From assembly GCA_964366905.1 (NCBI GenBank), contig CAYIVQ010000001.1, positions 1 to 45,156 on the forward strand: a stretch of 45,156 nt of DNA, in the 5' to 3' direction. This DNA comes from an uncultured Candidatus Saccharibacteria bacterium (lineage in GTDB: Bacteria > Patescibacteriota > Minisyncoccia > GWC2-36-17 > WO2-46-25). A program made the translations under genes and the position numbers. Shown here in pieces: positions 815 to 21,195 of this stretch. Below the pieces are notes generated by a model. The model saw only the letters and a list, made by a program, of their open reading frames with translations, had not been told where the DNA came from and ran no database searches. The stretch's first letter is position 1; each line of letters begins with the position of its first letter.

Positions 815-2752
815 ATGTGGCAAACTGAATTAAAACAATATATTGCTAATGTTTCTAAAATGGGATTTCCTGAAGCAAAAATTCGGGATGTTTTGCGCGG
901 CGCGGGATGGAAAGACGACCAAATTAATGGCGGATTCAAAGCCATAAAATTGATGACAATAATAAACGCGCCTGCTATCGCGCTGGATTTGGAAAAAATC
1001 GCGAAAGTGCAAAGAACTTTTCATGACGATTTGAAAAAAGTAAAATCTCAAGAAAAAACCGTTATTTCGCGTCATTCTGAGGAAGTCGGTGACCGAAGAA
1101 TCTCTGAAAATCAAGCAAAATACCGGATTCTTCGCAAGCTCAGAATGACAAATAAGAAGCTTAGTAATCCAAAGTTAATAAAAGAAACATACGAGCATGA
1201 TTATTTTTTGCCGGAAGCCCATGATTATTATCTCGCGCCATCTTCCGCAAGACAACCCGCCGCATTGCTTGCCGGCGCTTCCGCGCCGGCGCCACTAATG
1301 CTTGCTTCGCCGTCATACCTGACGATATGGTGGCGAAAAATTCAATTTTGGACGGAATATTTTTTTACATCATTGGAAGGAGCTCTTGTCATCTTAGGGA
1401 AAACTGCTCTTTTGCCGATTGTGATTATTAGTTTTATTGTCACTGCCATTACTGTATCCATTAAGTCGGTCGCGGCAAAAAAACCTAAAATAAAACAAAC
1501 TCCTGCAATAGAATCTATTACCGAATTTGCATCCGTCTCTGAACAAAATTTTCCGGAACATATTTTAATCCGAGATGTTTTTAGGCTTGCGGGAAGAATG
1601 TTTCGGACCCGCCGCCTGCGGACATTTTTGACAATATTGGGTATCAGCGTCGGCATCGGCACTATTTTATTTTTAGTTTCGCTCGGTTATGGAATGCAAA
1701 ATGTTTTATTTGAAAAAATCACAACCGAAGAAGCATTATTGACTCTAGACGCGATGCCGCCATCCGATAATACTGTGGTTGCTATTAATAAACAATTGGT
1801 GGATAAAATTAAAGAAATCAACGGAGTAGCGGAAGTAAGCGCTATGACAACATTAAGCGGCTCGATTTTGTGGAAAGATTTTTCCGCCGCCGGACTTGTC
1901 AATGTAGTTGACCCGTCTTATTTAAGACTTGCAGGAGTCAAACCTATTGCCGGGATGATGCCCGGATTAAGCGAAAAAAACGTGATTGTTGTTTCTTCGG
2001 CTATTATGCAATTATTTAATTTAAATTCTCCGGAAGAAGCGCTTGGCAAAGAATTAACTTTTGTCGTGTCTTTGGAGAACGGAGAAGAGATGAAATCAGT
2101 AAATTTGGATAATAATTTCAAAGTAGTCGGGGTTGTTGATGACTCATTTTCGGTATTTGCGTATATCTCAAAAGAAGATATTCCGGATTTTGATATTTCC
2201 GAATATTCGCAATTAAAAGTTAAAGTCGCGGACTCTCAATTATTGGAGCCTGTCAGAGAACAATTATTGACTCACGGGCTTTTAGTGTCCGCTCTTTCGG
2301 AAACAGTCGATCAAGCGCGTAAAGTTTTCAATATTGTCCGATTGATACTCGGATTATTTGGCATCATCACTTTAGTGGTTTCCGCTATCGGCATGTTAAA
2401 CACTATGACCATCGCCTTGCTTGAAAGAACGCAGGAAGTAGGGATAATGAAAGCGATTGGCGCTTCTGATTTTGATATTTGGAAGCTGTTTTTAGCTGAA
2501 GCTATGATTATGGGATTTTTTGGAGGAATAGGAGGGATAGCGATGGGTTACTTGAGCGCTAATCTGTTTAATTTAGGCATCAACGCTTTGGCGAAAGCTT
2601 TTGGCGGTCAAAGCCTCAACTTCTTTCAAACCCCGTCATGGTTTGTGCTGACAATCGTAATATTCTCGGTGACTGTCGGCATGATCACCGGTCTTTGGCC
2701 AGCTCGTCGAGCGTCAAGATTGGACCCATTGGACGCGTTGAAATACAAATAA
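815..2752 (+). CDS. ABC transporter permease, MacB/FtsX-like, with ~250-aa N-terminal extension
   Basis: First TM RTFLTILGISVGIGTILF, a large extracytoplasmic loop, then a C-terminal FtsX-type region (IMKAIGASDFDIWKLFLAEAMIMGFFGG). The consensus-like N-terminus (IRDVFRLAGRMFRTRRLR) has no nearby ATG, which supports the long ORF. Confidence 0.8.
   Translation: MWQTELKQYIANVSKMGFPEAKIRDVLRGAGWKDDQINGGFKAIKLMTIINAPAIALDLEKIAKVQRTFHDDLKKVKSQEKTVISRHSEEVGDRRISENQAKYRILRKLRMTNKKLSNPKLIKETYEHDYFLPEAHDYYLAPSSARQPAALLAGASAPAPLMLASPSYLTIWWRKIQFWTEYFFTSLEGALVILGKTALLPIVIISFIVTAITVSIKSVAAKKPKIKQTPAIESITEFASVSEQNFPEHILIRDVFRLAGRMFRTRRLRTFLTILGISVGIGTILFLVSLGYGMQNVLFEKITTEEALLTLDAMPPSDNTVVAINKQLVDKIKEINGVAEVSAMTTLSGSILWKDFSAAGLVNVVDPSYLRLAGVKPIAGMMPGLSEKNVIVVSSAIMQLFNLNSPEEALGKELTFVVSLENGEEMKSVNLDNNFKVVGVVDDSFSVFAYISKEDIPDFDISEYSQLKVKVADSQLLEPVREQLLTHGLLVSALSETVDQARKVFNIVRLILGLFGIITLVVSAIGMLNTMTIALLERTQEVGIMKAIGASDFDIWKLFLAEAMIMGFFGGIGGIAMGYLSANLFNLGINALAKAFGGQSLNFFQTPSWFVLTIVIFSVTVGMITGLWPARRASRLDPLDALKYK
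1043..1174 (+). repeat. decayed 132-bp MITE copy C, translated inside the permease CDS
   Basis: Core 1071-1153 is about 90% identical by eye to copies A/B. The right end is collinear (28 nt from GACAAA to CAAAG, as in A). The left end is degenerate. Read in frame as SRHSEEVGDRRISENQAKYRILRKLRMTNKKLSNPK. Confidence 0.7.
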
Positions 2753-2771
2753 AACTAATTTCTAATAAACT

Positions 2772-2813
2772 AAATTACGCATATAATTACTATAGTAACT
2801 ATACACGTAATTT
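2772..2813. promoter_or_regulatory. 42-bp imperfect palindrome (18/21 pairs) upstream of the PaaX-like gene; candidate operator and/or terminator of the permease gene
   Basis: AAATTACGCATATAATTACTA|TAGTAACTATACACGTAATTT centred on CTATAG. Related to the perfect palindrome at 3410-3467. Ends 21 nt before the ATG at 2835. Confidence 0.5.
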
Positions 2814-2834
2814 GCGGTTAAGTGATTAGGTATT

Positions 2835-3419
2835 ATGAAAAAACAAAATAGATCAAAAAATTTACCAAGATTAAAAATTGGCCACACAGGTCAAAAGATT
2901 TTGCTTTTAATCAGCGCTGGGTTAACACTTAGTTTAACACACAGACCGGATCAATATTTTCGAATCATCGCAAACACTAGATATGAATGGCAGAAAATCA
3001 ACAACAGATGTTTGCATGAAGCGATTAAAAGATTATATCAATCAAAGTTAATAGATTATAAAGAAAACAACGATGGGACGATTGTTTTAGTTTTATCCGA
3101 ACAGGGGACACAAAAAATATTAAAATATAATTTAGACACAATAAAATTACAGAGACATGATGAATGGGACGGATTATGGCGATTAGTGATATTTGATATT
3201 CCCGAGCATTTTAAGAAAGGAAGAAGCGCGTTATCAAATAAATTAAAACAACTCGGTTTTTACCCTCTTCAAAAAAGTGTTTTTATTTATCCTTATGAGT
3301 GTAAAAATGAAACTGATTTTATTATTGAGTTTTTTGGAATGAAACCATATGTTAGATTCATTTTAGCCAAAGAAACTGATATTGATTTAGACTTGAAAAA
3401 TAAATTTAATCTAACCTAA
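2835..3419 (+). CDS. PaaX-like regulator (winged-helix N-terminus, PaaX/Cas2-like C-terminal domain)
   Basis: WDGLWRLVIFDIPEHFKKGRSALSNKLKQLGFYPLQKSVFIYP matches the PaaX-family C-terminal signature as I remember it. The central HEAIKRLYQSKLIDYKENNDGTIVLVLSEQG looks like a wHTH. Confidence 0.55.
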   Translation: MKKQNRSKNLPRLKIGHTGQKILLLISAGLTLSLTHRPDQYFRIIANTRYEWQKINNRCLHEAIKRLYQSKLIDYKENNDGTIVLVLSEQGTQKILKYNLDTIKLQRHDEWDGLWRLVIFDIPEHFKKGRSALSNKLKQLGFYPLQKSVFIYPYECKNETDFIIEFFGMKPYVRFILAKETDIDLDLKNKFNLT

Positions 3420-3467
3420 ATTACGTGTATAATTACTATAGTAATTATACACGTAATTTAGGTTAGA
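3410..3467. repeat. 58-bp perfect palindrome between convergent PaaX-like gene and recG
   Basis: Verified base by base: 3438-k pairs with 3439+k for k=0..28, with no loop and no mismatch. Overlaps the stop codon at 3417-3419. Core shared with 2772-2813. Confidence 0.9.
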
Positions 3468-3485
3468 GATGATTATTGTTTATGT

Positions 3486-5774
3486 TTATTCAAAATGAAT
3501 TTTTGCGTTAAATCGCGCAAGATAATTTTTCAGTTTCGGATGGCGGGTTAGTTCCGAGTCTTCTTTAAGCAATTGTATTGCTTCTTCGCGCGCTTCTTTT
3601 ATTAAAATTTTGTTAGTGAGCGACGCCATGGTTAAATCCGGCAGACCGGATTGGCGAGTGCCGAGAAAATCCCCCGGCCCTCTGATTTCCAAATCCTTTT
3701 CCGCGAGCTCAAACCCGTTCTGGCAATTTATTAATGCTTTCAGCCGTCTGCTATTTGCCAATGTCGTATTTTCCGCGAATAAAAGGCAGTATGATTGATA
3801 TTCTCCTCGGCCCACTCTGCCTCTGAATTGATGAAGTTGCGCCAAACCGAAATGCTCCGCCCCTTCAATAAGCATCAAAACGGCATTTGGCACATCAATG
3901 CCGACTTCTATGACTGAAGTTGAAACTAAAATATTGAAGCGATTGGCCTTGAATTCCTTCATGATCCGCTCTTTTTCTTGCGGCTTCATTTTGCCGTGCA
4001 ACATTTCTATTTTCAGATCGGGGAAAATTTCACTGGAAAGTTTTTGATATTCTTCTTTGACAGTTTTGACTTCTTTTTTAAGCAATTCTTGCTGATATGT
4101 TTTTTCGCTTTTGATTTTTGAATCTTCCTGCGCGTCTATTCTCGGACAAATCACAAATGCTTGCCTGCCTTTTCTAATCTCTTCGCGAACAAAATCATAA
4201 GCAGACGTTCGTTCTGAAGGAGTTATTATTTTTGTAACAATATTTTTACGATTTTTCGGCATCTCATTAAGCAAAGAAATATCCAAATCGCCGTATAACG
4301 TGAGAGTGAGAGTGCGCGGTATCGGAGTGGCAGTCATTGATAAAAGATGGGGCATCAGACCGCTTACCGTTTTATATCTTTGCAAAAGTTCAGCCCGCTG
4401 ATTAACACCAAAACGATGCTGTTCATCAAGCACGATAAGTCCTAAGGAAGGGAAAGAGACTTTTTCTGAAATTAGCGCGTGAGTTCCAGTAGTAATTAAA
4501 AGCTTTTTGGACGTTAGCTGATTTAAAAATTCCTGTTTTTTCAGCTTATATTCCGACTTAACTTCAGAATCAAATATTTCAGCGCTGTTGCCGGTAAGCA
4601 GACCGACATTAAAGCCAAATTCGGCAACCATACTGCTTAAAGTATGAAAATGCTGGCGGGCAAGCACTTCGGTTGGCGCCATTATGGCAATTTGGCGGCC
4701 TTTAGAAGCCGCGTTTAACGCGGCAATCGCCGCCACGACCGTTTTACCGGATCCAACATCGCCTTCAAGCAAGCGATTCATCGGGATATTTTTTGACATA
4801 TCCTGTAAAATTTCCCACGCGGCCTTGCGTTGAGAATCAGTCAGCGTGAAAGAAAGAGAAGCGACGAATTTTTTTGTTTTTTCTATGTCAAAAGGTATCG
4901 GTGGCGCGGCAGATTTTTTTATTTTTCGTCTTGCTTTCAGTATAATCAGTTGAATGAGAAGCAATTCTTCAAAAGCCAGCCGTCTTTTCGCTTCTTTCAC
5001 TTCATCAGTATTTTCAGGAAAATGAATTTTTAAAATAGCGGAGCTTATGGGAAGCAGATTATGCTTCTTTATGATTTCTTGCGGGAGAATCTCTTCCATT
5101 TGCGCGGCTTGCCCGTCATACGGCGAGTGCTCCCGTTTTGTCCAAGAGCTTTGCGATTGGCGCACAAAACGCAGTCCAGCGAGGCTTTTGCCGAGTCGTG
5201 GCTCCGCTTTCTCCGTTCGCGGGTTGCCGATCGCGTTTTTCACCAGGAATCTGATCCAACGAGAAGTAATGCCCGCGGTTTCACGATATATCGGCACCAA
5301 TCCTCCAGTATGCGTATGTTCGGAAGTCGAACTTTCAAATATTCTTTCATAAGCGGGATTTTGCAAATATAAAGAGTTGCCGTAAGAAACCGCCTTTCCG
5401 GCCAAATTCACTAAACTGCCGATTTTCAGATTTCGAATCAAAAACGGCTGGTTGAACCACACTGCTTTTATCATGCCGCTTTCATCTGAAACTTCCGCTT
5501 CAGTAACATACATATTTTTTTTCCATGTCCGTTTGTTCGTTATTTTATCTATTTTCGCGCGAATAGTCGCAGTTTCACCAGGAGTCAATTCGGCTATATT
5601 TACAATTTTTGAGAAATCATCATATCGAAATGGAATATGCCGCAAAAGATCATAAACAGTATGAATGCCCAAAACTTTAAGTGGTTTGACAATCTTATAG
5701 TTGACTCCTTTTAACTTTTCTATCGGGTCGGATAAACCGATATTTTTTATATGAGTTTTACCTATCATAAACAA
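3486..5774 (-). CDS. recG: ATP-dependent DNA helicase RecG
   Basis: 762 aa. N-terminal wedge region (HIPFRYDD), Walker A GDVGSGKT, DEQHRFG box, C-terminal helicase motifs (QLHQFRGRVGRG), TRG-like end. Confidence 0.93.
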   Translation of the reverse strand: MFMIGKTHIKNIGLSDPIEKLKGVNYKIVKPLKVLGIHTVYDLLRHIPFRYDDFSKIVNIAELTPGETATIRAKIDKITNKRTWKKNMYVTEAEVSDESGMIKAVWFNQPFLIRNLKIGSLVNLAGKAVSYGNSLYLQNPAYERIFESSTSEHTHTGGLVPIYRETAGITSRWIRFLVKNAIGNPRTEKAEPRLGKSLAGLRFVRQSQSSWTKREHSPYDGQAAQMEEILPQEIIKKHNLLPISSAILKIHFPENTDEVKEAKRRLAFEELLLIQLIILKARRKIKKSAAPPIPFDIEKTKKFVASLSFTLTDSQRKAAWEILQDMSKNIPMNRLLEGDVGSGKTVVAAIAALNAASKGRQIAIMAPTEVLARQHFHTLSSMVAEFGFNVGLLTGNSAEIFDSEVKSEYKLKKQEFLNQLTSKKLLITTGTHALISEKVSFPSLGLIVLDEQHRFGVNQRAELLQRYKTVSGLMPHLLSMTATPIPRTLTLTLYGDLDISLLNEMPKNRKNIVTKIITPSERTSAYDFVREEIRKGRQAFVICPRIDAQEDSKIKSEKTYQQELLKKEVKTVKEEYQKLSSEIFPDLKIEMLHGKMKPQEKERIMKEFKANRFNILVSTSVIEVGIDVPNAVLMLIEGAEHFGLAQLHQFRGRVGRGEYQSYCLLFAENTTLANSRRLKALINCQNGFELAEKDLEIRGPGDFLGTRQSGLPDLTMASLTNKILIKEAREEAIQLLKEDSELTRHPKLKNYLARFNAKIHFE
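5112..5228 (-). repeat. intragenic GC-rich repeat, 114-nt long form, in recG
   Basis: Read on the recG strand as (G)NPRTEKAEPRLGKSLAGLRFVRQSQSSWTKREHSPYDG. The 72-nt internal segment is identical to that at 24330-24401. Confidence 0.85.
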
Positions 5775-18178: not shown

Positions 18179-18493
18179 TTGTTTGAGATGGAGGGACTTA
18201 AGCCAGACGGCAAAGAGCCGTACGTGGTGGAGATAAACGAAGTACCGGATATTAACAACGACGGCGCGATAAGTTTGGAAGATGTCGAGGCACTACTTAG
18301 ACGTAATAAAAAATCATCTCGGAAATTACAGGGTAACGGCGATTTCCGAAGTGAAGAATGTATTGAATTACTCAAAGAAGCTGACGTTGTGGTCACGAAT
18401 CCTCCATTTTCACTCTTTCGTGAATATATTGCCCAGCTTGTCGAATACAATAAGAAGTTTCTGATTATCGGTAATGTAAATGCGATTACTTAG
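18179..18493 (+). pseudogene. internal fragment of an EcoRI-methylase-family N6-adenine DNA methyltransferase
   Basis: GDFRSEECIELLKEADVVVTNPPFSLFREYIAQLVEYNKKFLIIGNVNAIT then a stop. Family members normally have ~100 aa more upstream (DEFYT region) and continue after NAITYKE. Both ends are missing here. Confidence 0.65.
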
Positions 18494-18494
18494 A

Positions 18495-18683
18495 AAATGG
18501 GGTCAGGTACCTTTTTAAAAATGAGTCGCAAACAAACACAGAACCAGATGCTTTAAGATATTCAATAAACAAATGGAAACCTTACGAATCAGAAAACTGG
18601 GTAAATAAAATAATTGATAAGTTTGATTTAAAACCAACATTAAGAAGCCTATGGCGGCCTAAAAAAGGTACCTGACCCCATTT
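18495..18683. repeat. 189-bp unit bounded by 22-bp perfect inverted repeats
   Basis: AAATGGGGTCAGGTACCTTTTT (18495-18516) and its exact reverse complement (18662-18683), with a 145-bp AT-rich interior. Begins 1 nt after the truncated methylase ORF. Confidence 0.8.
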
Positions 18684-18733: not shown

Positions 18734-19300
18734 ATGAAAAAGCAAATAGAGCTTAATGCTAAAAAAGTTGAATATACCCTGAAAGTGAGCAAGCGGGCGC
18801 GAATGATGCGGCTGACTGTTTATTGCGGAGGCGATTTTGTGGTGACGGCTCCGCAAAGCGTAGGAGAAAATGTTATTGAGCAGTTTATCATTAAAAAATC
18901 ACAGTGGGTTATTGATAAGATAAATTATTTAAAACAGTTTCCCGCCGGAACTTTTACAAAAAGTAATCGGGGAGATTTTTTAAAACACAAAGATGTCGCG
19001 TTGAAGCTGGCGGAGAGGCAGATAGAATATTTTAATGATTTTTATAAACTCAAGTTTAATAAGATAAATATAAGAAATCAAAAAACTCGCTGGGGCAGCT
19101 GTTCTAAAAAAGGTAATTTGAATTTTAATTACAAAATCGTACTACTACCGCAACAACTCGCCGACTATATTATTGTCCATGAATTATGCCATCTTGGTGA
19201 ATTTAATCACTCTAAAAGATTTTGGAATCTGGTCGCCAAAATGATCCCAAACTATCAAGAGATGAGAAATGAGTTGAGGAAAAACAGAATTAGTTTATGA
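18734..19300 (+). CDS. M48/YgjP-like (DUF45) metal-dependent hydrolase
   Basis: RWGSCSKKGNLNFNYKIVLLPQQLADYIIVHELCHLGEFNHSKRFW (HExxH). Confidence 0.8.
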   Translation: MKKQIELNAKKVEYTLKVSKRARMMRLTVYCGGDFVVTAPQSVGENVIEQFIIKKSQWVIDKINYLKQFPAGTFTKSNRGDFLKHKDVALKLAERQIEYFNDFYKLKFNKINIRNQKTRWGSCSKKGNLNFNYKIVLLPQQLADYIIVHELCHLGEFNHSKRFWNLVAKMIPNYQEMRNELRKNRISL

Positions 19301-19572
19301 ACTATTTCGTCTATATTCTCAAATGTGCTGATGATACTCTTTATGTCGGCTCTACTAATGATTTGGCAAAGAGGATTATTCAACATAATACGGCAAAGGC
19401 GGGGGCGCATTACACAAAAATCCGGCGGCCGGTGGAGCTGGTATATTCGGAAACTGTGGAAACTCTTTCAAGGGCGCTCAAGCGAGAAGCTGAAATTAAA
19501 CTCTGGCGCAGGGATAAGAAAATAAAACTCATTCAACCCGCGAACACAGAGAGCGGAGCAGTCGCCGTATGA
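19297..19572 (+). CDS. GIY-YIG nuclease-family protein (UPF0213-like)
   Basis: YFVYILKCADDTLYVGSTNDLAKRIIQH...REAEIK. The last 11 codons and the stop come from the intragenic repeat. Confidence 0.85.
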   Translation: MNYFVYILKCADDTLYVGSTNDLAKRIIQHNTAKAGAHYTKIRRPVELVYSETVETLSRALKREAEIKLWRRDKKIKLIQPANTESGAVAV

Positions 19573-19618: not shown

Positions 19619-19660
19619 TTTCGTCTATCTGTTAAGCTATAGCTTAACAGATAGACGAAA
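19619..19660. repeat. 42-bp perfect palindrome
   Basis: TTTCGTCTATCTGTTAAGCTA|TAGCTTAACAGATAGACGAAA, checked base by base. Centre CTATAG, as in the 2772/3410 palindromes. Confidence 0.9.
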
Positions 19661-19716
19661 CTATAATAAGTTTAAATAGTTTTCGATAGGACTTCCTCTT
19701 TTTCTTAAGATGAGAT

Positions 19717-21195
19717 ATGCTAAGAACTCATCATAAAAGTATGTCTCAAGATAAAATTATCATTAGATTTGACGAAGTGTCCTTTGAATACGGGCACGCG
19801 AAACCCATTTTAGACGAGGTTAGTTTTTCGGTGCGGCAGGGGATGAAGTTTGCCCTGATGGGCCAAAACGGCGCCGGCAAAAGCACGCTTTTTACATTGA
19901 TAACCGGGGACGCAAAACCGGATTCCGGAAAAGTAAGCATAGATGCAAATCTTTCCATCGCGACGGCGCGGCAAGTTATTCCGCGCGATCAATTGGATTT
20001 GACGGTGCGGGAATTTTTTGAAAAGCGCTTCTCAAAAAAAGCGTATGATATAGACCCGAAAATAGACGCGGTCTTAGATATAGTGCATCTTTCAGCGCCG
20101 CGCGACAGAATAATCAAATCATTTTCCGGAGGACAGCAGGCGCGGCTTTTACTCGCTTCCGCGCTTATTCAAAACCCGGATATTTTGCTTCTGGACGAAC
20201 CGACTAATAATTTAGATAAAGAAGGCATCGCGCATCTCACCGATTTTCTCAAAAAATATCAAAAGACGGTCGTCGTTATTTCTCACGATGCCGAATTTTT
20301 AAATTCATTCACCGACGGAGTTTTATATCTTGATGTGTTTACCAGAAAAATTGAGCGGTATGTCGGGAATTATTTTGACGCGGTCAATGAGATTTCCGCC
20401 CGCATAGAAAAAGAAAATAGCAAGAATGCCCAACTCGCGAAAGAGATTCAGGAAAATAAGGACAAGGCGAATTTCTTCGCGCAAAAAGGCGGAGGAATGC
20501 GTATGGTTGCCAAACGCATGCGCGACAAAGCCGAAAAACTTGAAGAAGAAAAAGTTGATGTGAGAAGGGAAGATAAAACTATCCGCCATTTCACGATACC
20601 CGCGCAACAGGATTTAACTGGAGAAATTATCCGCATTACTTCATTTACCACGCTTAAAAATCATAAGCCAACGGCACACAAAACAAATATTTCTTTGAAG
20701 AAGAATAATCATCTTTTGCTTTCCGGTCCTAACGGCATCGGCAAAAGCACTTTGCTTGAGTTAATTACAGAGAATAATGCGCCGGGCATAAGCGTCGCCC
20801 CCAGAGTGAGAATCGGGTATTATCGCCAGGATTTTTCAACGCTCAATTTTGACGATACGGTATATGATTCTCTTTTTTCCATTATGAAAGAGCGGGACGA
20901 ACATGAAATGCGATCAACCGCCGCCGGTTTTCTCATTACGGCAGAGAGTATGCGTATAAAAATTGGGGATCTGTCCGAAGGACAAAAAGGCTTAGTCGCT
21001 TTCGCGCGGCTGGTACTTCAAAAGCCGGGGCTTCTTATTTTAGATGAGCCGACCAATCATATCAATTTCCGCCACATTCCGCTTATCGCCGAAGCGCTTA
21101 ATACCTATCAGGGAGCGATGATTTTAGTCAGCCATGTGCCTTCGTTCGTGAAAAAAATCCGCATTGACGAAGTTTTGGATTTGGAAAAATTATAG
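19717..21195 (+). CDS. ABC-F family ATPase (two ABC domains, no TM)
   Basis: GQNGAGKST / LSGGQQARLLLA / LLLDEPTN, charged linker, then GPNGIGKST / LSEGQKG / LILDEPTNH. Confidence 0.88.
   Translation: MLRTHHKSMSQDKIIIRFDEVSFEYGHAKPILDEVSFSVRQGMKFALMGQNGAGKSTLFTLITGDAKPDSGKVSIDANLSIATARQVIPRDQLDLTVREFFEKRFSKKAYDIDPKIDAVLDIVHLSAPRDRIIKSFSGGQQARLLLASALIQNPDILLLDEPTNNLDKEGIAHLTDFLKKYQKTVVVISHDAEFLNSFTDGVLYLDVFTRKIERYVGNYFDAVNEISARIEKENSKNAQLAKEIQENKDKANFFAQKGGGMRMVAKRMRDKAEKLEEEKVDVRREDKTIRHFTIPAQQDLTGEIIRITSFTTLKNHKPTAHKTNISLKKNNHLLLSGPNGIGKSTLLELITENNAPGISVAPRVRIGYYRQDFSTLNFDDTVYDSLFSIMKERDEHEMRSTAAGFLITAESMRIKIGDLSEGQKGLVAFARLVLQKPGLLILDEPTNHINFRHIPLIAEALNTYQGAMILVSHVPSFVKKIRIDEVLDLEKL

What the first reader, a model, noticed from the sequence alone, without database searches (positions are those of the whole stretch)
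2772..3467. A PaaX-like regulator gene is bracketed by two related long palindromes, the downstream one a 58-bp perfect palindrome
The upstream palindrome (2772-2813) is 42 bp with 18 of 21 pairs. The downstream one (3410-3467) has 29 of 29 pairs, no loop, and overlaps the stop codon. They share the core AAATTACG(C/T)(A/G)TATA(A/G)TTACTATAG..., and similarity continues about 15 nt to the right (GGTTA(A)G.GAT.A). The gene is therefore flanked by directly repeated units of about 60 bp that are each self-complementary.

There are two readings. In the first, they are operators for the encoded winged-helix protein, giving autoregulation plus a second site for looping or roadblock of convergent recG transcription. 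In the second, they are the boundaries of a one-gene mobile cassette. A loopless 58-bp perfect palindrome is itself unusual, because long perfect palindromes are generally unstable in bacteria that have SbcCD.
Basis: partly seen in the sequence, partly recalled or inferred. Interest (0 to 1): 0.65.

Follow-up and report, generated by a model that had tools for sequence, protein, structure and literature searches.

The report
Regulator gene bracketed by its operators
A small DNA-binding protein gene of an ultra-small groundwater bacterium (Patescibacteria) sits between two copies of a roughly 40-bp palindrome that is very probably its own binding site, and this layout recurs across a large, undescribed protein family, which makes its target genes predictable from sequence.

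Summary
A 42-bp imperfect palindrome (2772-2813) and a 58-bp perfect palindrome (3410-3467) flank ORF 2835-3419, and they are the only two copies in 45 kb.

The protein has a winged-helix domain plus a PaaX_M (Cas2-like) domain. It has no PaaX C-terminal domain, so it is PaaX-like in architecture only.

The layout is family-wide. In 68 of 81 homologous loci the gene has a 32-66-bp palindrome with a conserved centre C-K-R-Y-M-G next to it, and 46 of 81 have one on each side. Arms differ between lineages and paralogs, match between the two copies of a locus, and track protein identity.

Upstream copies lie just 5' of a -10 box. Downstream copies have no terminator T-tract and no G·U bias.

A close relative (L087) lacks the whole 733-bp block. 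In a sister lineage the same palindrome, joined to a promoter, also precedes rpsP, the glycyl-tRNA synthetase gene and rpsO.

Best reading: a PaaX-type dimer binds these long operators, as E. coli PaaX binds TGATTC-N27-GAATCA. This gives autoregulation plus a second site at the 3' end, in a unit that is gained or lost whole. A transposon-like role for the protein is not excluded.

The parts
2772..2813 (.). Upstream palindrome (42 bp, 18 of 21 pairs, dyad between 2792 and 2793): proposed operator 1, overlapping the probable promoter of the gene
   Evidence: Homologous loci carry a site at the same place, with a median of 46 nt from dyad to start codon.
2782..2787 (+). TATAAT inside the left arm (TATAGT at 2791-2796 is an alternative): candidate -10 box of the gene, inferred only
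   Evidence: Read directly from the sequence. No TAnnnT hexamer lies between the palindrome and the ATG in this window. In most homologous loci the -10 box lies just 3' of the palindrome. The consensus promoter scan gave nothing useful here.
2835..3419 (+). Gene for a 194-aa protein: N-terminal winged-helix domain plus a PaaX_M (Cas2-like) domain, with no PaaX C-terminal domain
   Evidence: Pfam PF20803, E = 6e-21. AlphaFold2 model with pLDDT 78; best Foldseek match is E. coli PaaX 8a39, followed by Cas2 structures. About 2,449 clusters (50% identity) of relatives at E <= 1e-10.
3410..3467 (.). Downstream palindrome (58 bp, perfect; the 42-bp core shared with the upstream copy is 3418-3459): proposed operator 2, between the convergent 3' ends of this gene and recG
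   Evidence: Sixty of 81 homologous loci have a downstream site, at a median of 46 nt from stop codon to dyad. These sites have no T-tract and no fixed -10 box.
2753..3485 (+). The whole block (palindrome, gene, palindrome and short flanks) that is present here and in L089 but absent in L087, where the permease and recG stop codons are 2 nt apart
19619..19660 (.). Orphan palindrome of the same class: 42 bp, perfect, centre GCTATAGC, unrelated arms. It is followed by TATAAT at 19662-19667, 49 nt before the ABC-F ATPase gene (19717-21195). Proposed operator-promoter unit for a paralogous regulator encoded outside the window.
   Evidence: There is no second family gene in the window, and no matching half-site among the 68 lineages sampled.

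Best explanation
The 194-aa protein is a stripped-down PaaX-type DNA-binding protein. It has a winged-helix domain plus a Cas2-like domain and lacks the effector-binding C-terminal domain.

I propose that it binds double-stranded DNA as a dimer. The Cas2-like domains pair over the conserved centre of the palindrome (C-K-A|T-M-G). The two winged helices read the lineage-specific outer arms, about 11-19 bp from the dyad. This geometry would explain why the site is about 40 bp long.

The upstream palindrome overlaps the gene's own core promoter, so occupancy sets the protein's own level. Autorepression is the more likely sign. Activation from about -40 is not excluded.

The second palindrome, at the 3' end, is a further high-affinity site. 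I propose that it either pairs with the upstream site, looping out the roughly 650-bp gene, or acts as a protein roadblock. A roadblock would stop transcription leaving the gene and convergent recG transcription entering it.

Gene plus sites form a self-contained unit that is gained or lost as a whole. Copies of the same operator joined to a promoter can put other genes under the same protein's control, as seen in a sister lineage.

**Shown:** the repeats; the family-wide association; co-variation of sites with the protein; proximity to a -10 box; presence or absence of the block among relatives.

**Inferred:** binding, dimer geometry, the sign of regulation, and looping or roadblock.
For: 1. 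**Association.** Sites are defined as a CKRYMG centre with at least 10 of 14 arm pairs. 116 such sites lie within about 240 nt of the gene ends, against 12 in the remaining ~580 kb of 81 loci. 46 loci have a site on both sides, 8 upstream only, 14 downstream only and 13 none.
2. **Site anatomy.** Symmetry between half-sites and agreement between the upstream and downstream copies are 82-99% out to position 17 from the dyad. Both decline to background (~35%) by positions 21-22. Flanks beyond the palindrome are unrelated.
3. **Sites follow the protein.** Half-site identity is 0.33 between proteins 40-50% identical, 0.57 at 70-80% and 0.87 above 80%. Paralogs on one contig (L048, L084) have different arms. 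Window and L089 share the same locus with 77% identical proteins and differ at 4 positions, changed in the consensus of all four half-sites.
4. **Residue-base co-variation.** Residue 127, in helix 1 of the Cas2-like domain, co-varies with position 4 of the site. Lys goes with G in 42 of 50 cases and Arg with A in 11 of 15, spread over the tree. Recognition-helix residues 57, 58, 61 and 62 co-vary with positions 11-19.
5. **Promoter proximity.** -10-like hexamers, many of the extended TGnTAnnnT type, give 44 hits at +25 to +42 on the gene side of 54 upstream sites. The mirror side gives 10.
6. **No RNA signature.** On the sense strand there are 12 G·T against 8 A·C mismatches. Downstream sites have no T-tract. 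No Rfam family matches.
7. **Precedent.** E. coli PaaX binds TGATTC-N27-GAATCA, a 39-bp site, and represses its own promoter (PMC9493321). PaaX is the best structural match of the model.
8. **Sister lineage.** The same palindrome plus -10 box precedes the genes for S16, glycyl-tRNA synthetase and S15, among others.
Against: - No binding data exist.
- The co-variation analysis is not corrected for phylogeny.
- About a third of the sites are perfect over 34 bp or more. In the sister lineage the dispersed copies are nearly identical, including about 27 nt of non-palindromic flank. That is more uniform than operators of a regulon usually are, and it hints at copying rather than selection alone.
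- One dispersed copy (L103) points into the 3' end of def, not at a gene start.
- The Cas2-like domain keeps the Asp that is catalytic in Cas2, together with many invariant polar residues. An enzymatic role is therefore possible.
- Dyad-to-dyad distances show no helical phasing, so there is no positive evidence for looping.
- In this window no -10 box lies between the palindrome and the ATG, so the local promoter is only guessed.
Confidence: 0.65

Rival explanations
1. The unit is a mobile or domesticated mobile system comparable to REP elements with their RAYT transposase, or to an IS element with its MITEs. In this reading the protein uses its Cas2-like domain as a nuclease or recombinase, acting on the palindromes, possibly as extruded hairpins. 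It moves or copies the palindrome-bounded gene and the solo palindrome-promoter units. This is not exclusive of the operator reading, because the protein would still bind the sites.
For: - The whole block is present or absent among close relatives.
- There is no conserved neighbourhood, all four neighbour orientations occur, and neighbours are housekeeping genes.
- Nine genomes among the 80 best loci carry 2-3 divergent paralogs, each with its own palindrome.
- In Hainich assembly ERZ1292623 the same 44-bp palindrome lies on at least 8 contigs. A conserved unit of about 90 nt surrounds it, and one copy points at no gene.
- A different HTH gene is bracketed by the same palindrome (L097).
- Asymmetric centres occur in both relative orientations.
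- The Cas2 catalytic Asp position (D121) is invariant in the 27-sequence family alignment, and the family profile aligns that stretch with the Asp-containing strand of Cas2 3exc.
Against: - No target-site duplications were found, and no similarity extends beyond ±20 nt from the dyad at the gene's own sites.
- No two identical gene copies in different contexts were seen.
- The gene diverges at the same rate as the adjacent smpB in one clade (79% against 81%), and it sits at the same locus in window and L089. Movement is therefore rare at best.
- The family is absent from IMG/VR viral contigs.
- Cas2-fold proteins are not known to be transposases.
- Five of six dispersed copies point at a downstream gene start.
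Confidence: 0.2
2. The palindromes act as RNA or transcription-level hairpins. They would be terminators or mRNA-stabilising stem-loops at the ends of the transcript, possibly bound by the Cas2-like (RNase-fold) domain. They would look alike only because they derive from one duplicated element.
For: - The downstream palindrome overlaps the stop codon and lies between convergent genes, where a bidirectional terminator would be expected.
- It would form a very stable hairpin.
- The terminator scan flags the upstream one on the minus strand.
- Some Cas2 proteins are reported to be RNases (PMC3506569).
Against: - Downstream sites have no T-tract (T fraction 0.33, which is background).
- There is no excess of G·U-compatible mismatches on the sense strand (12 against 8).
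- In most loci the -10 box lies 3' of the upstream palindrome, so that palindrome is not in the mRNA.
- Terminator function does not explain lineage-specific arms that co-vary with the protein, or a centre conserved across the family.
Confidence: 0.07
3. Chance, or an assembly artefact such as palindromic chimeras created by the assembler.
For: Short Logan contigs end inside the 58-bp palindrome (L005, L006), so the sequence does disturb assembly.
Against: - The same structure is present in independent assemblies of several samples (L001-L004).
- It recurs in 68 of 81 homologous loci from many studies.
- Shuffles give 0 expected matches.
Confidence: 0.01

Closest known systems
E. coli / Pseudomonas PaaX repressor and its operator
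   Same: - Same first two domains: a winged helix plus the central Cas2-like 'dimerisation' domain (Pfam PaaX_M; the best Foldseek match is 8a39).
- The operator is a very long palindrome, TGATTC-N27-GAATCA (39 bp), compared with a 42-bp core here.
- PaaX represses its own promoter by steric hindrance (PMC9493321).
   Different: - There is no C-terminal effector (phenylacetyl-CoA) domain.
- The NCBIfam PaaX score is far below the cut-off.
- There are no paa genes nearby.
- Here the whole 40 bp is symmetric, with a family-wide conserved centre.
- A second site sits at the 3' end of the gene.
- Genomes carry many paralogs, each with its own site.
Cas2 (CRISPR adaptation protein) and VapD
   Same: - Same ferredoxin-like fold.
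- The strand-1 motif (VIFDIPE here) and the QKSVF motif align with Cas2.
- The position of the catalytic Asp is conserved.
   Different: - Scores fall just below the Cas2 cut-offs (22.9 against 24.5 bits).
- No cas1 or CRISPR array is nearby.
- The domain is fused to a DNA-binding domain.
- The two 'repeats' are separated by a gene, not by spacers.
REP elements and their RAYT transposases (REPINs); description from general knowledge
   Same: - A single-copy gene flanked by its cognate palindromic repeats.
- Each paralog has its own repeat family.
- Inheritance is largely vertical.
- In one lineage the repeat is dispersed in intergenic regions.
   Different: - The protein is not a HUH/Y1 transposase.
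- The dispersed copies carry a promoter and mostly face genes.
- Dispersal has been shown for only one lineage, not for the genome this window comes from.
Lrp/AsnC-type regulators (HTH plus a ferredoxin-like RAM domain); from general knowledge
   Same: - A small DNA-binding domain followed by a βαββαβ domain that mediates oligomerisation.
- Autoregulation through palindromic sites at the regulator's own promoter.
   Different: - A different sequence family.
- Lrp-type sites are short (about 13-15 bp) and degenerate.
- No bracketing of the gene is known for that family.
Auxiliary-operator looping systems (lac O1/O2, phage lambda OL/OR around cI); from general knowledge
   Same: A repressor with a promoter-proximal operator and a second operator hundreds of bp away. 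In lambda the two operators lie on either side of the repressor gene.
   Different: Looping is not demonstrated here, and no helical phasing was detected. The proteins are unrelated.

Membership tests
PaaX regulators (TIGR02277 / Pfam PaaX, PaaX_M, PaaX_C) | Winged-helix N-terminal domain followed by the central Cas2-like domain | tested here: met
   PF20803 scores E = 6e-21 on residues 109-181. TIGR02277 aligns residues 55-179 to PaaX 32-152. The top Foldseek match is PaaX 8a39, E = 7e-5.
PaaX regulators (TIGR02277 / Pfam PaaX, PaaX_M, PaaX_C) | C-terminal helical effector-binding domain (PaaX_C), and a whole-protein score above the curated cut-off | tested here: not met
   The protein ends at residue 194, and Pfam gives no PaaX_C hit. 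NCBIfam scores 27.4 bits against a cut-off of 264.55. Most listed relatives are about 180-200 aa long.
PaaX regulators (TIGR02277 / Pfam PaaX, PaaX_M, PaaX_C) | Long palindromic operator (about 39 bp span) at its own promoter, giving autorepression | tested here: inconclusive
   Span and position fit: the core is 42 bp, symmetry reaches about ±20 bp, and a -10 box is adjacent in homologs. Binding and repression were not tested.
PaaX regulators (TIGR02277 / Pfam PaaX, PaaX_M, PaaX_C) | Association with phenylacetate catabolic (paa) genes | tested here: not met
   The neighbours here are an FtsX-type permease and recG. The neighbour survey of 75 + 75 genes shows housekeeping genes and no paa genes.
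Cas2 | Ferredoxin-like fold with the conserved Asp at the end of strand 1 | tested here: met
   The family profile aligns with Cas2 3exc across the Asp-containing first strand (VVYDV against VIFDI). D121 is invariant in 27 sequences. Foldseek finds many Cas2 structures.
Cas2 | Score above the family cut-off, and linkage to cas1 and a CRISPR array | tested here: not met
   TIGR01573 scores 22.9 against 24.5 bits, and PF09827 scores 21.4 against 23.8. No Cas1 appears among the neighbours. There are only two repeats, separated by the gene.
REP/RAYT-type repeat systems | Gene flanked by its cognate palindromic repeat | tested here: met
REP/RAYT-type repeat systems | The same repeat dispersed through intergenic regions of the genome | tested here: inconclusive
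   This is seen in one sister lineage, with at least 8 contigs of one assembly. In this window only the two flanking copies occur in 45 kb. The rest of this genome could not be scanned, because the metagenome scan for this palindrome found nothing.
REP/RAYT-type repeat systems | Protein is a HUH/Y1 (IS200/IS605-like) transposase | tested here: not met
   The only domains found are a winged helix and PaaX_M/Cas2-like.
IS element / MITE | Terminal inverted repeats with target-site duplication, and several near-identical copies | tested here: not met
   Flanks beyond ±20 nt are unrelated in either orientation. There is one family gene per locus and per window. Paralogs within a genome are divergent.
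Intrinsic (Rho-independent) terminator | G+C-rich stem followed by a T-run | tested here: not met
   The stem is A+T-rich. The T fraction after downstream sites is 0.33, which is background. The tool flags only the upstream palindrome, on the minus strand.

The most novel reading that the evidence does not exclude
The family is a Cas2-fold counterpart of the REP/RAYT arrangement. In this reading the protein does more than bind its palindromes. It would cut or recombine them, using the conserved Asp of the Cas2-like domain and possibly acting on extruded hairpins. It would thereby copy palindrome-promoter units in front of housekeeping genes and move the palindrome-bounded gene itself. That would make it a DNA-mobilising enzyme built on the Cas2 fold, operating without Cas1.
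Probability: 0.15. Interest if true: 0.85.

Novelty: new variant of a known kind. Interest (0 to 1): 0.6.

Why it matters
Patescibacteria have tiny genomes, few recognisable regulators and almost no experimentally known regulatory sites. This work identifies a large family: about 2,400 clusters (50% identity) at E <= 1e-10, often with several paralogs per genome. Its probable binding sites can be read directly from the DNA next to each gene.

That makes two things possible from sequence alone. Target genes can be predicted for uncultivated organisms; in one lineage the same site precedes ribosomal-protein and tRNA-synthetase genes. The link between protein residues and recognised bases can also be tested, because there are many natural protein-site pairs.

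The regular bracketing of the gene by two sites, and the spread of operator-promoter units, are unusual. They may show how small genomes rewire regulation. If the Cas2-like domain proves to be catalytic, the finding would also bear on the origin of Cas2.

Tried and rejected
- **Rfam** on 2500-3800 gave only sub-threshold miRNA-like hairpin matches.
- **Consensus promoter scan** of the region was no better than shuffles.
- **PDB sequence searches** found only a weak Cas2 match. PaaX was found only by fold comparison.
- **PHROGs** gave no hit, and PADLOC gave only weak Cas2 hits.
- **IMG/VR viral contigs** hold no relatives.
- **Metagenome scan for this window's own palindrome** gave 0 matches, so the rest of this genome could not be examined.
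- **Helical phasing** of dyad-to-dyad distances: none (Rayleigh p > 0.3).
- **G·U bias** as a test for RNA structure: none.
- **Target-site duplications or terminal repeats** beyond the palindromes: none.
- **Gain or loss of the block:** the three relatives give conflicting trees. The permease groups window with L089, while the RecG C-terminus groups window with L087. The direction of the event is therefore unresolved.
- **Matching the orphan palindrome at 19619** to the half-site of any sampled lineage: best 13 of 20, not convincing.
- **Literature searches** on PaaX-like or Cas2-like proteins and palindromes in Patescibacteria found no description of this arrangement.
- **CRISPR-like mini-array:** rejected. 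There are only two repeats, the 'spacer' is the gene, and there is no cas1.
Full report
**The observation.** The sequence is as described. Positions 2772-2813 form a 42-bp palindrome with 18 of 21 pairs. Positions 3410-3467 form a 58-bp palindrome with 29 of 29 pairs and no loop. The second one overlaps the TAA stop (3417-3419) of ORF 2835-3419. The two units are direct repeats, 84% identical over 63 nt. The 42-bp core occurs exactly twice in the 45-kb window, against 0 expected. Only six strong palindromes exist in the whole window. The gene lies between an FtsX-type permease gene (815-2752, + strand) and a convergent recG (3486-5774, - strand). Contigs carrying the identical protein come from Hainich groundwater metagenomes, and one source names it as a Patescibacteria protein.

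**The protein.** Pfam finds only the central Cas2-like domain of PaaX (PaaX_M, E = 6e-21, residues 109-181) and a sub-threshold Cas2 match. NCBIfam gives PaaX 27 bits against a cut-off of 264, and Cas2 22.9 against 24.5. PADLOC gives only weak Cas2 hits and PHROGs gives none. An AlphaFold2 model (pLDDT 78) shows helices and a β-hairpin in the N-terminal part, read here as a winged-helix domain on the strength of the PaaX match. A βαββαβ domain follows. The best Foldseek match is E. coli PaaX (8a39, E = 7e-5), followed by many Cas2 structures and Rv0674. The protein therefore has the first two domains of PaaX and lacks the effector-binding C-terminal domain. It is PaaX-like in architecture but is not a PaaX.

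The family is large and uniform. There are 2,449 clusters (50% identity) at E <= 1e-10, and most listed members are about 180-200 aa long. Relatives listed are 56-77% identical to the query, and the genomic loci analysed below go down to 42%. At least 573 genomic hits were found, nearly all in Patescibacteria genomes assembled from metagenomes. Nine genomes among the best 80 loci carry two or three paralogs. The family is absent from viral contigs.

**The arrangement is a property of the family.** I scanned 80 homologous loci and the window for palindromes. In most of them the gene has a 32-66-bp palindrome upstream and another downstream. I then anchored the scan on the shared centre C-[G/T]-[A/G]-[T/C]-[C/A]-G and required at least 10 of 14 arm pairs. 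By this measure 116 sites lie within about 240 nt of the gene ends, and 12 lie in the remaining ~580 kb. Sites occur on both sides in 46 loci, upstream only in 8, downstream only in 14, and in neither place in 13. The median distance is 46 nt from the upstream dyad to the start codon, and 46 nt from the stop codon to the downstream dyad. The median length is 38 bp. The window's 58-bp copy is the second longest perfect one.

**Anatomy of the site.** I aligned 228 half-sites on the dyad.
- Position 1 is A in 96% of half-sites.
- Position 2 is G or T.
- Position 3 is C. This position was fixed by the search pattern.
- Position 4 is G (64%) or A (28%) and never T.
- Positions 5-7 vary.
- Positions 8-12 are A/T-rich.
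- Positions 13-17 vary between loci but are 85-95% symmetric within a site.

Symmetry and agreement between the upstream and downstream copies both decline to background (~35%) by positions 21-22. Beyond ±20 nt the flanks of the two copies are unrelated in either orientation. At family level the repeated thing is therefore the palindrome itself, not a larger duplicated segment.

**The sites follow the protein.**
- Half-site identity (positions 4-20) is 0.33 for protein pairs 40-50% identical, 0.57 at 70-80%, and 0.87 above 80%.
- Two paralogs on one contig (L048, L084) have different arms.
- L089 carries the gene at the same locus as the window, between permease and recG, and its protein is 77% identical. 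Its half-site consensus differs from the window's at positions 12, 13, 14 and 16.
- A mutual-information scan gave its strongest signals between residues 127 and 131 (first helix of the Cas2-like domain) and position 4 next to the centre. Lys127 goes with G in 42 of 50 cases and Arg127 with A in 11 of 15, and these loci are not one tight clade.
- Recognition-helix residues 57, 58, 61 and 62 co-vary with outer positions 11-19.

The scan is not corrected for phylogeny, so it is suggestive only. It fits a dimer whose Cas2-like domains sit on the centre while the winged helices read the outer arms.

**DNA or RNA?**
- On the gene side of the upstream sites, -10-like hexamers are concentrated at +25 to +42 from the dyad. 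Many are of the extended TGnTAnnnT type. There are 44 hits for 54 sites, against 10 on the mirror side and 10-13 around downstream sites. In most loci the palindrome therefore lies just upstream of the -10 box, over the -35 and spacer region, and outside the mRNA.
- In this window no such hexamer lies between the palindrome and the ATG. Candidate -10 boxes lie inside the palindrome (TATAAT 2782-2787, TATAGT 2791-2796). This is inference.
- Downstream sites have no T-tract (T fraction 0.33) and no fixed -10 box.
- Arm mismatches show no G·U preference on the sense strand (12 G·T against 8 A·C).
- Rfam gives nothing above threshold.

Together these points favour a function on duplex DNA.

**Cassette behaviour.** L087 is a contig whose RecG is 88% identical to the window's and whose gene order is the same: ScpB, ScpA, a sugar transferase, a 169-aa protein, a GGDEF protein, RecG, the permease and an ABC ATPase. 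In L087 the recG and permease stop codons are 2 nt apart. The 733-bp block 2753-3485 is absent, with no palindrome left behind. L089 has the block. The permease groups window with L089 (88% against 78% identity). The RecG C-terminus groups window with L087 (86% against 78%). Gain or loss therefore cannot be decided.

Across the family there is no conserved neighbourhood. All four neighbour orientations occur, and the neighbours are housekeeping genes such as tRNA synthetases, SmpB, DNA polymerase III subunits and MiaA. Within the smpB-linked clade (L007, L009, L012, L091) the protein diverges about as fast as SmpB (79% against 81%). Units therefore stay in place for long periods.

**Dispersed copies in a sister lineage.** A metagenome scan with the clade-specific core GTTATTYCARCGATCGYTKRAATAAC returned 16 loci. 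In one Hainich assembly (ERZ1292623, contigs of similar 3-4x coverage), at least 8 contigs carry the same 44-bp palindrome or a 2-nt variant of it. Only one of them (L095) carries the family gene, which is flanked by two copies. I infer that these contigs belong to one population; this is not proven.

The other copies lie in intergenic regions:
- upstream of the S16 gene (L098)
- 45 nt before the glycyl-tRNA synthetase gene (L100)
- facing the S15 gene (L094)
- before a small membrane-protein gene (L092)
- before an unnamed ORF (L107)
- between def and fmt, pointing at the 3' end of def (L103)

Six copies, including the one upstream of the family gene, share a unit of about 90 nt. It consists of a 27-nt distal element, the palindrome, and T(A/G)TGATATAAT, an extended -10 box. 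The copy downstream of the family gene is the bare palindrome. In L097 the same palindrome brackets a different gene, which encodes a 174-aa protein with a LexA-type HTH.

This is what a regulon built from copied operator-promoter units would look like. The near-identity of the copies also leaves room for an active copying mechanism.

**The third palindrome of the window.** Positions 19619-19660 form a perfect 42-bp palindrome with the family centre (GCTATAGC) but unrelated arms. It is followed by TATAAT (19662-19667), 49 nt before an ABC-F ATPase gene. No second family gene lies in the window. No sampled lineage has a matching half-site. I read it as the operator-promoter unit of a paralog encoded elsewhere in the genome. 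A leftover solo site is the alternative.

**Mechanism proposed.** A PaaX-type dimer binds the ~40-bp palindrome as duplex DNA. The upstream site controls the gene's own promoter. The downstream site gives a second anchor for looping or a roadblock between convergent transcripts.

The precedent is E. coli PaaX. Its operator is TGATTC-N27-GAATCA (39 bp), and it represses its own promoter by steric hindrance (PMC9493321). The unusual length of these palindromes is thus the expected footprint of this architecture. Confidence is about 0.65.

The main rival is a REP/RAYT-like or IS/MITE-like system in which the protein also cuts or recombines the palindromes. I give it about 0.2. It is compatible with binding. 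RNA hairpin or terminator roles get about 0.07. Artefact is excluded for practical purposes.

**Novelty.** Four full-text literature searches found no description of this family or its palindromes. The mechanism is a variant of a known kind, an autoregulated PaaX/GntR-like repressor with a palindromic operator. Four things are new:
- a minimal two-domain form that is abundant in Patescibacteria
- regular bracketing of the gene by two sites
- a centre conserved across the family, combined with arms specific to each lineage
- the spread of operator-promoter units

**Limits.** There is no experimental evidence of binding. The rest of this genome could not be scanned, because the scan for the window's palindrome returned nothing. 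The co-variation analysis is not corrected for phylogeny, and the promoter assignments rest on consensus matches.

Noticed in passing
window 19619-19667: A perfect 42-bp palindrome with the same centre (GCTATAGC) and length as the family sites, but with unrelated arms. It is followed directly by TATAAT and lies 49 nt upstream of an ABC-F ATPase gene (19717-21195). A GIY-YIG gene (19297-19572) lies just before it. It is probably the operator-promoter unit of a paralogous regulator encoded outside the window.
   Followed up: partly
window 18495-18683: A 189-bp element with perfect 22-bp terminal inverted repeats (AAATGGGGTCAGGTACCTTTTT). It begins right at the stop codon of a truncated methyltransferase-like ORF (18179-18493, NPPF motif). 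It looks like a MITE insertion that cut the gene.
   Followed up: partly
L097 2243-2920 (Hainich H51 assembly): A different gene, encoding a 174-aa protein with a LexA-type HTH domain (2302-2826, - strand), is bracketed by near-identical copies of the 44-bp palindrome that brackets the PaaX_M gene of that lineage (L095). Bracketing is therefore not exclusive to the family gene.
   Followed up: partly
L098, L100, L094, L103, L107, L095 (alignment A5): A portable unit of about 90 nt is repeated in front of housekeeping genes in one population. It consists of a 27-nt distal element (TTTTACAGGAGAATATTTAATGTTTCAG), the palindrome, and an extended -10 box (TGATATAAT). In L098 parts of it are tandemly duplicated.
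   Followed up: partly
L093 1853-1898 and L101 4393-4438 (JGI contigs; L101 comes from a 267-kb contig): A perfect 46-bp palindrome, CAGAATTCACGTTATTCCAGCGATCGCTGGAATAACGTGAATTCTG, lies in frame inside an amine-oxidase / phytoene-desaturase-like ORF. The organism does not appear to be a Patescibacterium.
   Followed up: no
L106 186 and 248; L107 1981 and 2078; L047 upstream region: Two different palindromes of this class lie 60-100 nt apart in one intergenic region. This suggests that two paralogous regulators act on the same promoter.
   Followed up: no
L005, L006 (Logan contigs): Short-read contigs end about 20 nt after the gene, inside the 58-bp palindrome. Assemblies tend to break at these sites, which may hide such units in fragmented genomes assembled from metagenomes.
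   Followed up: no
window 815-5774 compared with L087 and L089: Mosaic relationships appear around the block. The permease is closest to L089 (88%), while the RecG C-terminus is closest to L087 (86%). This suggests recombination at or near the block.
   Followed up: partly
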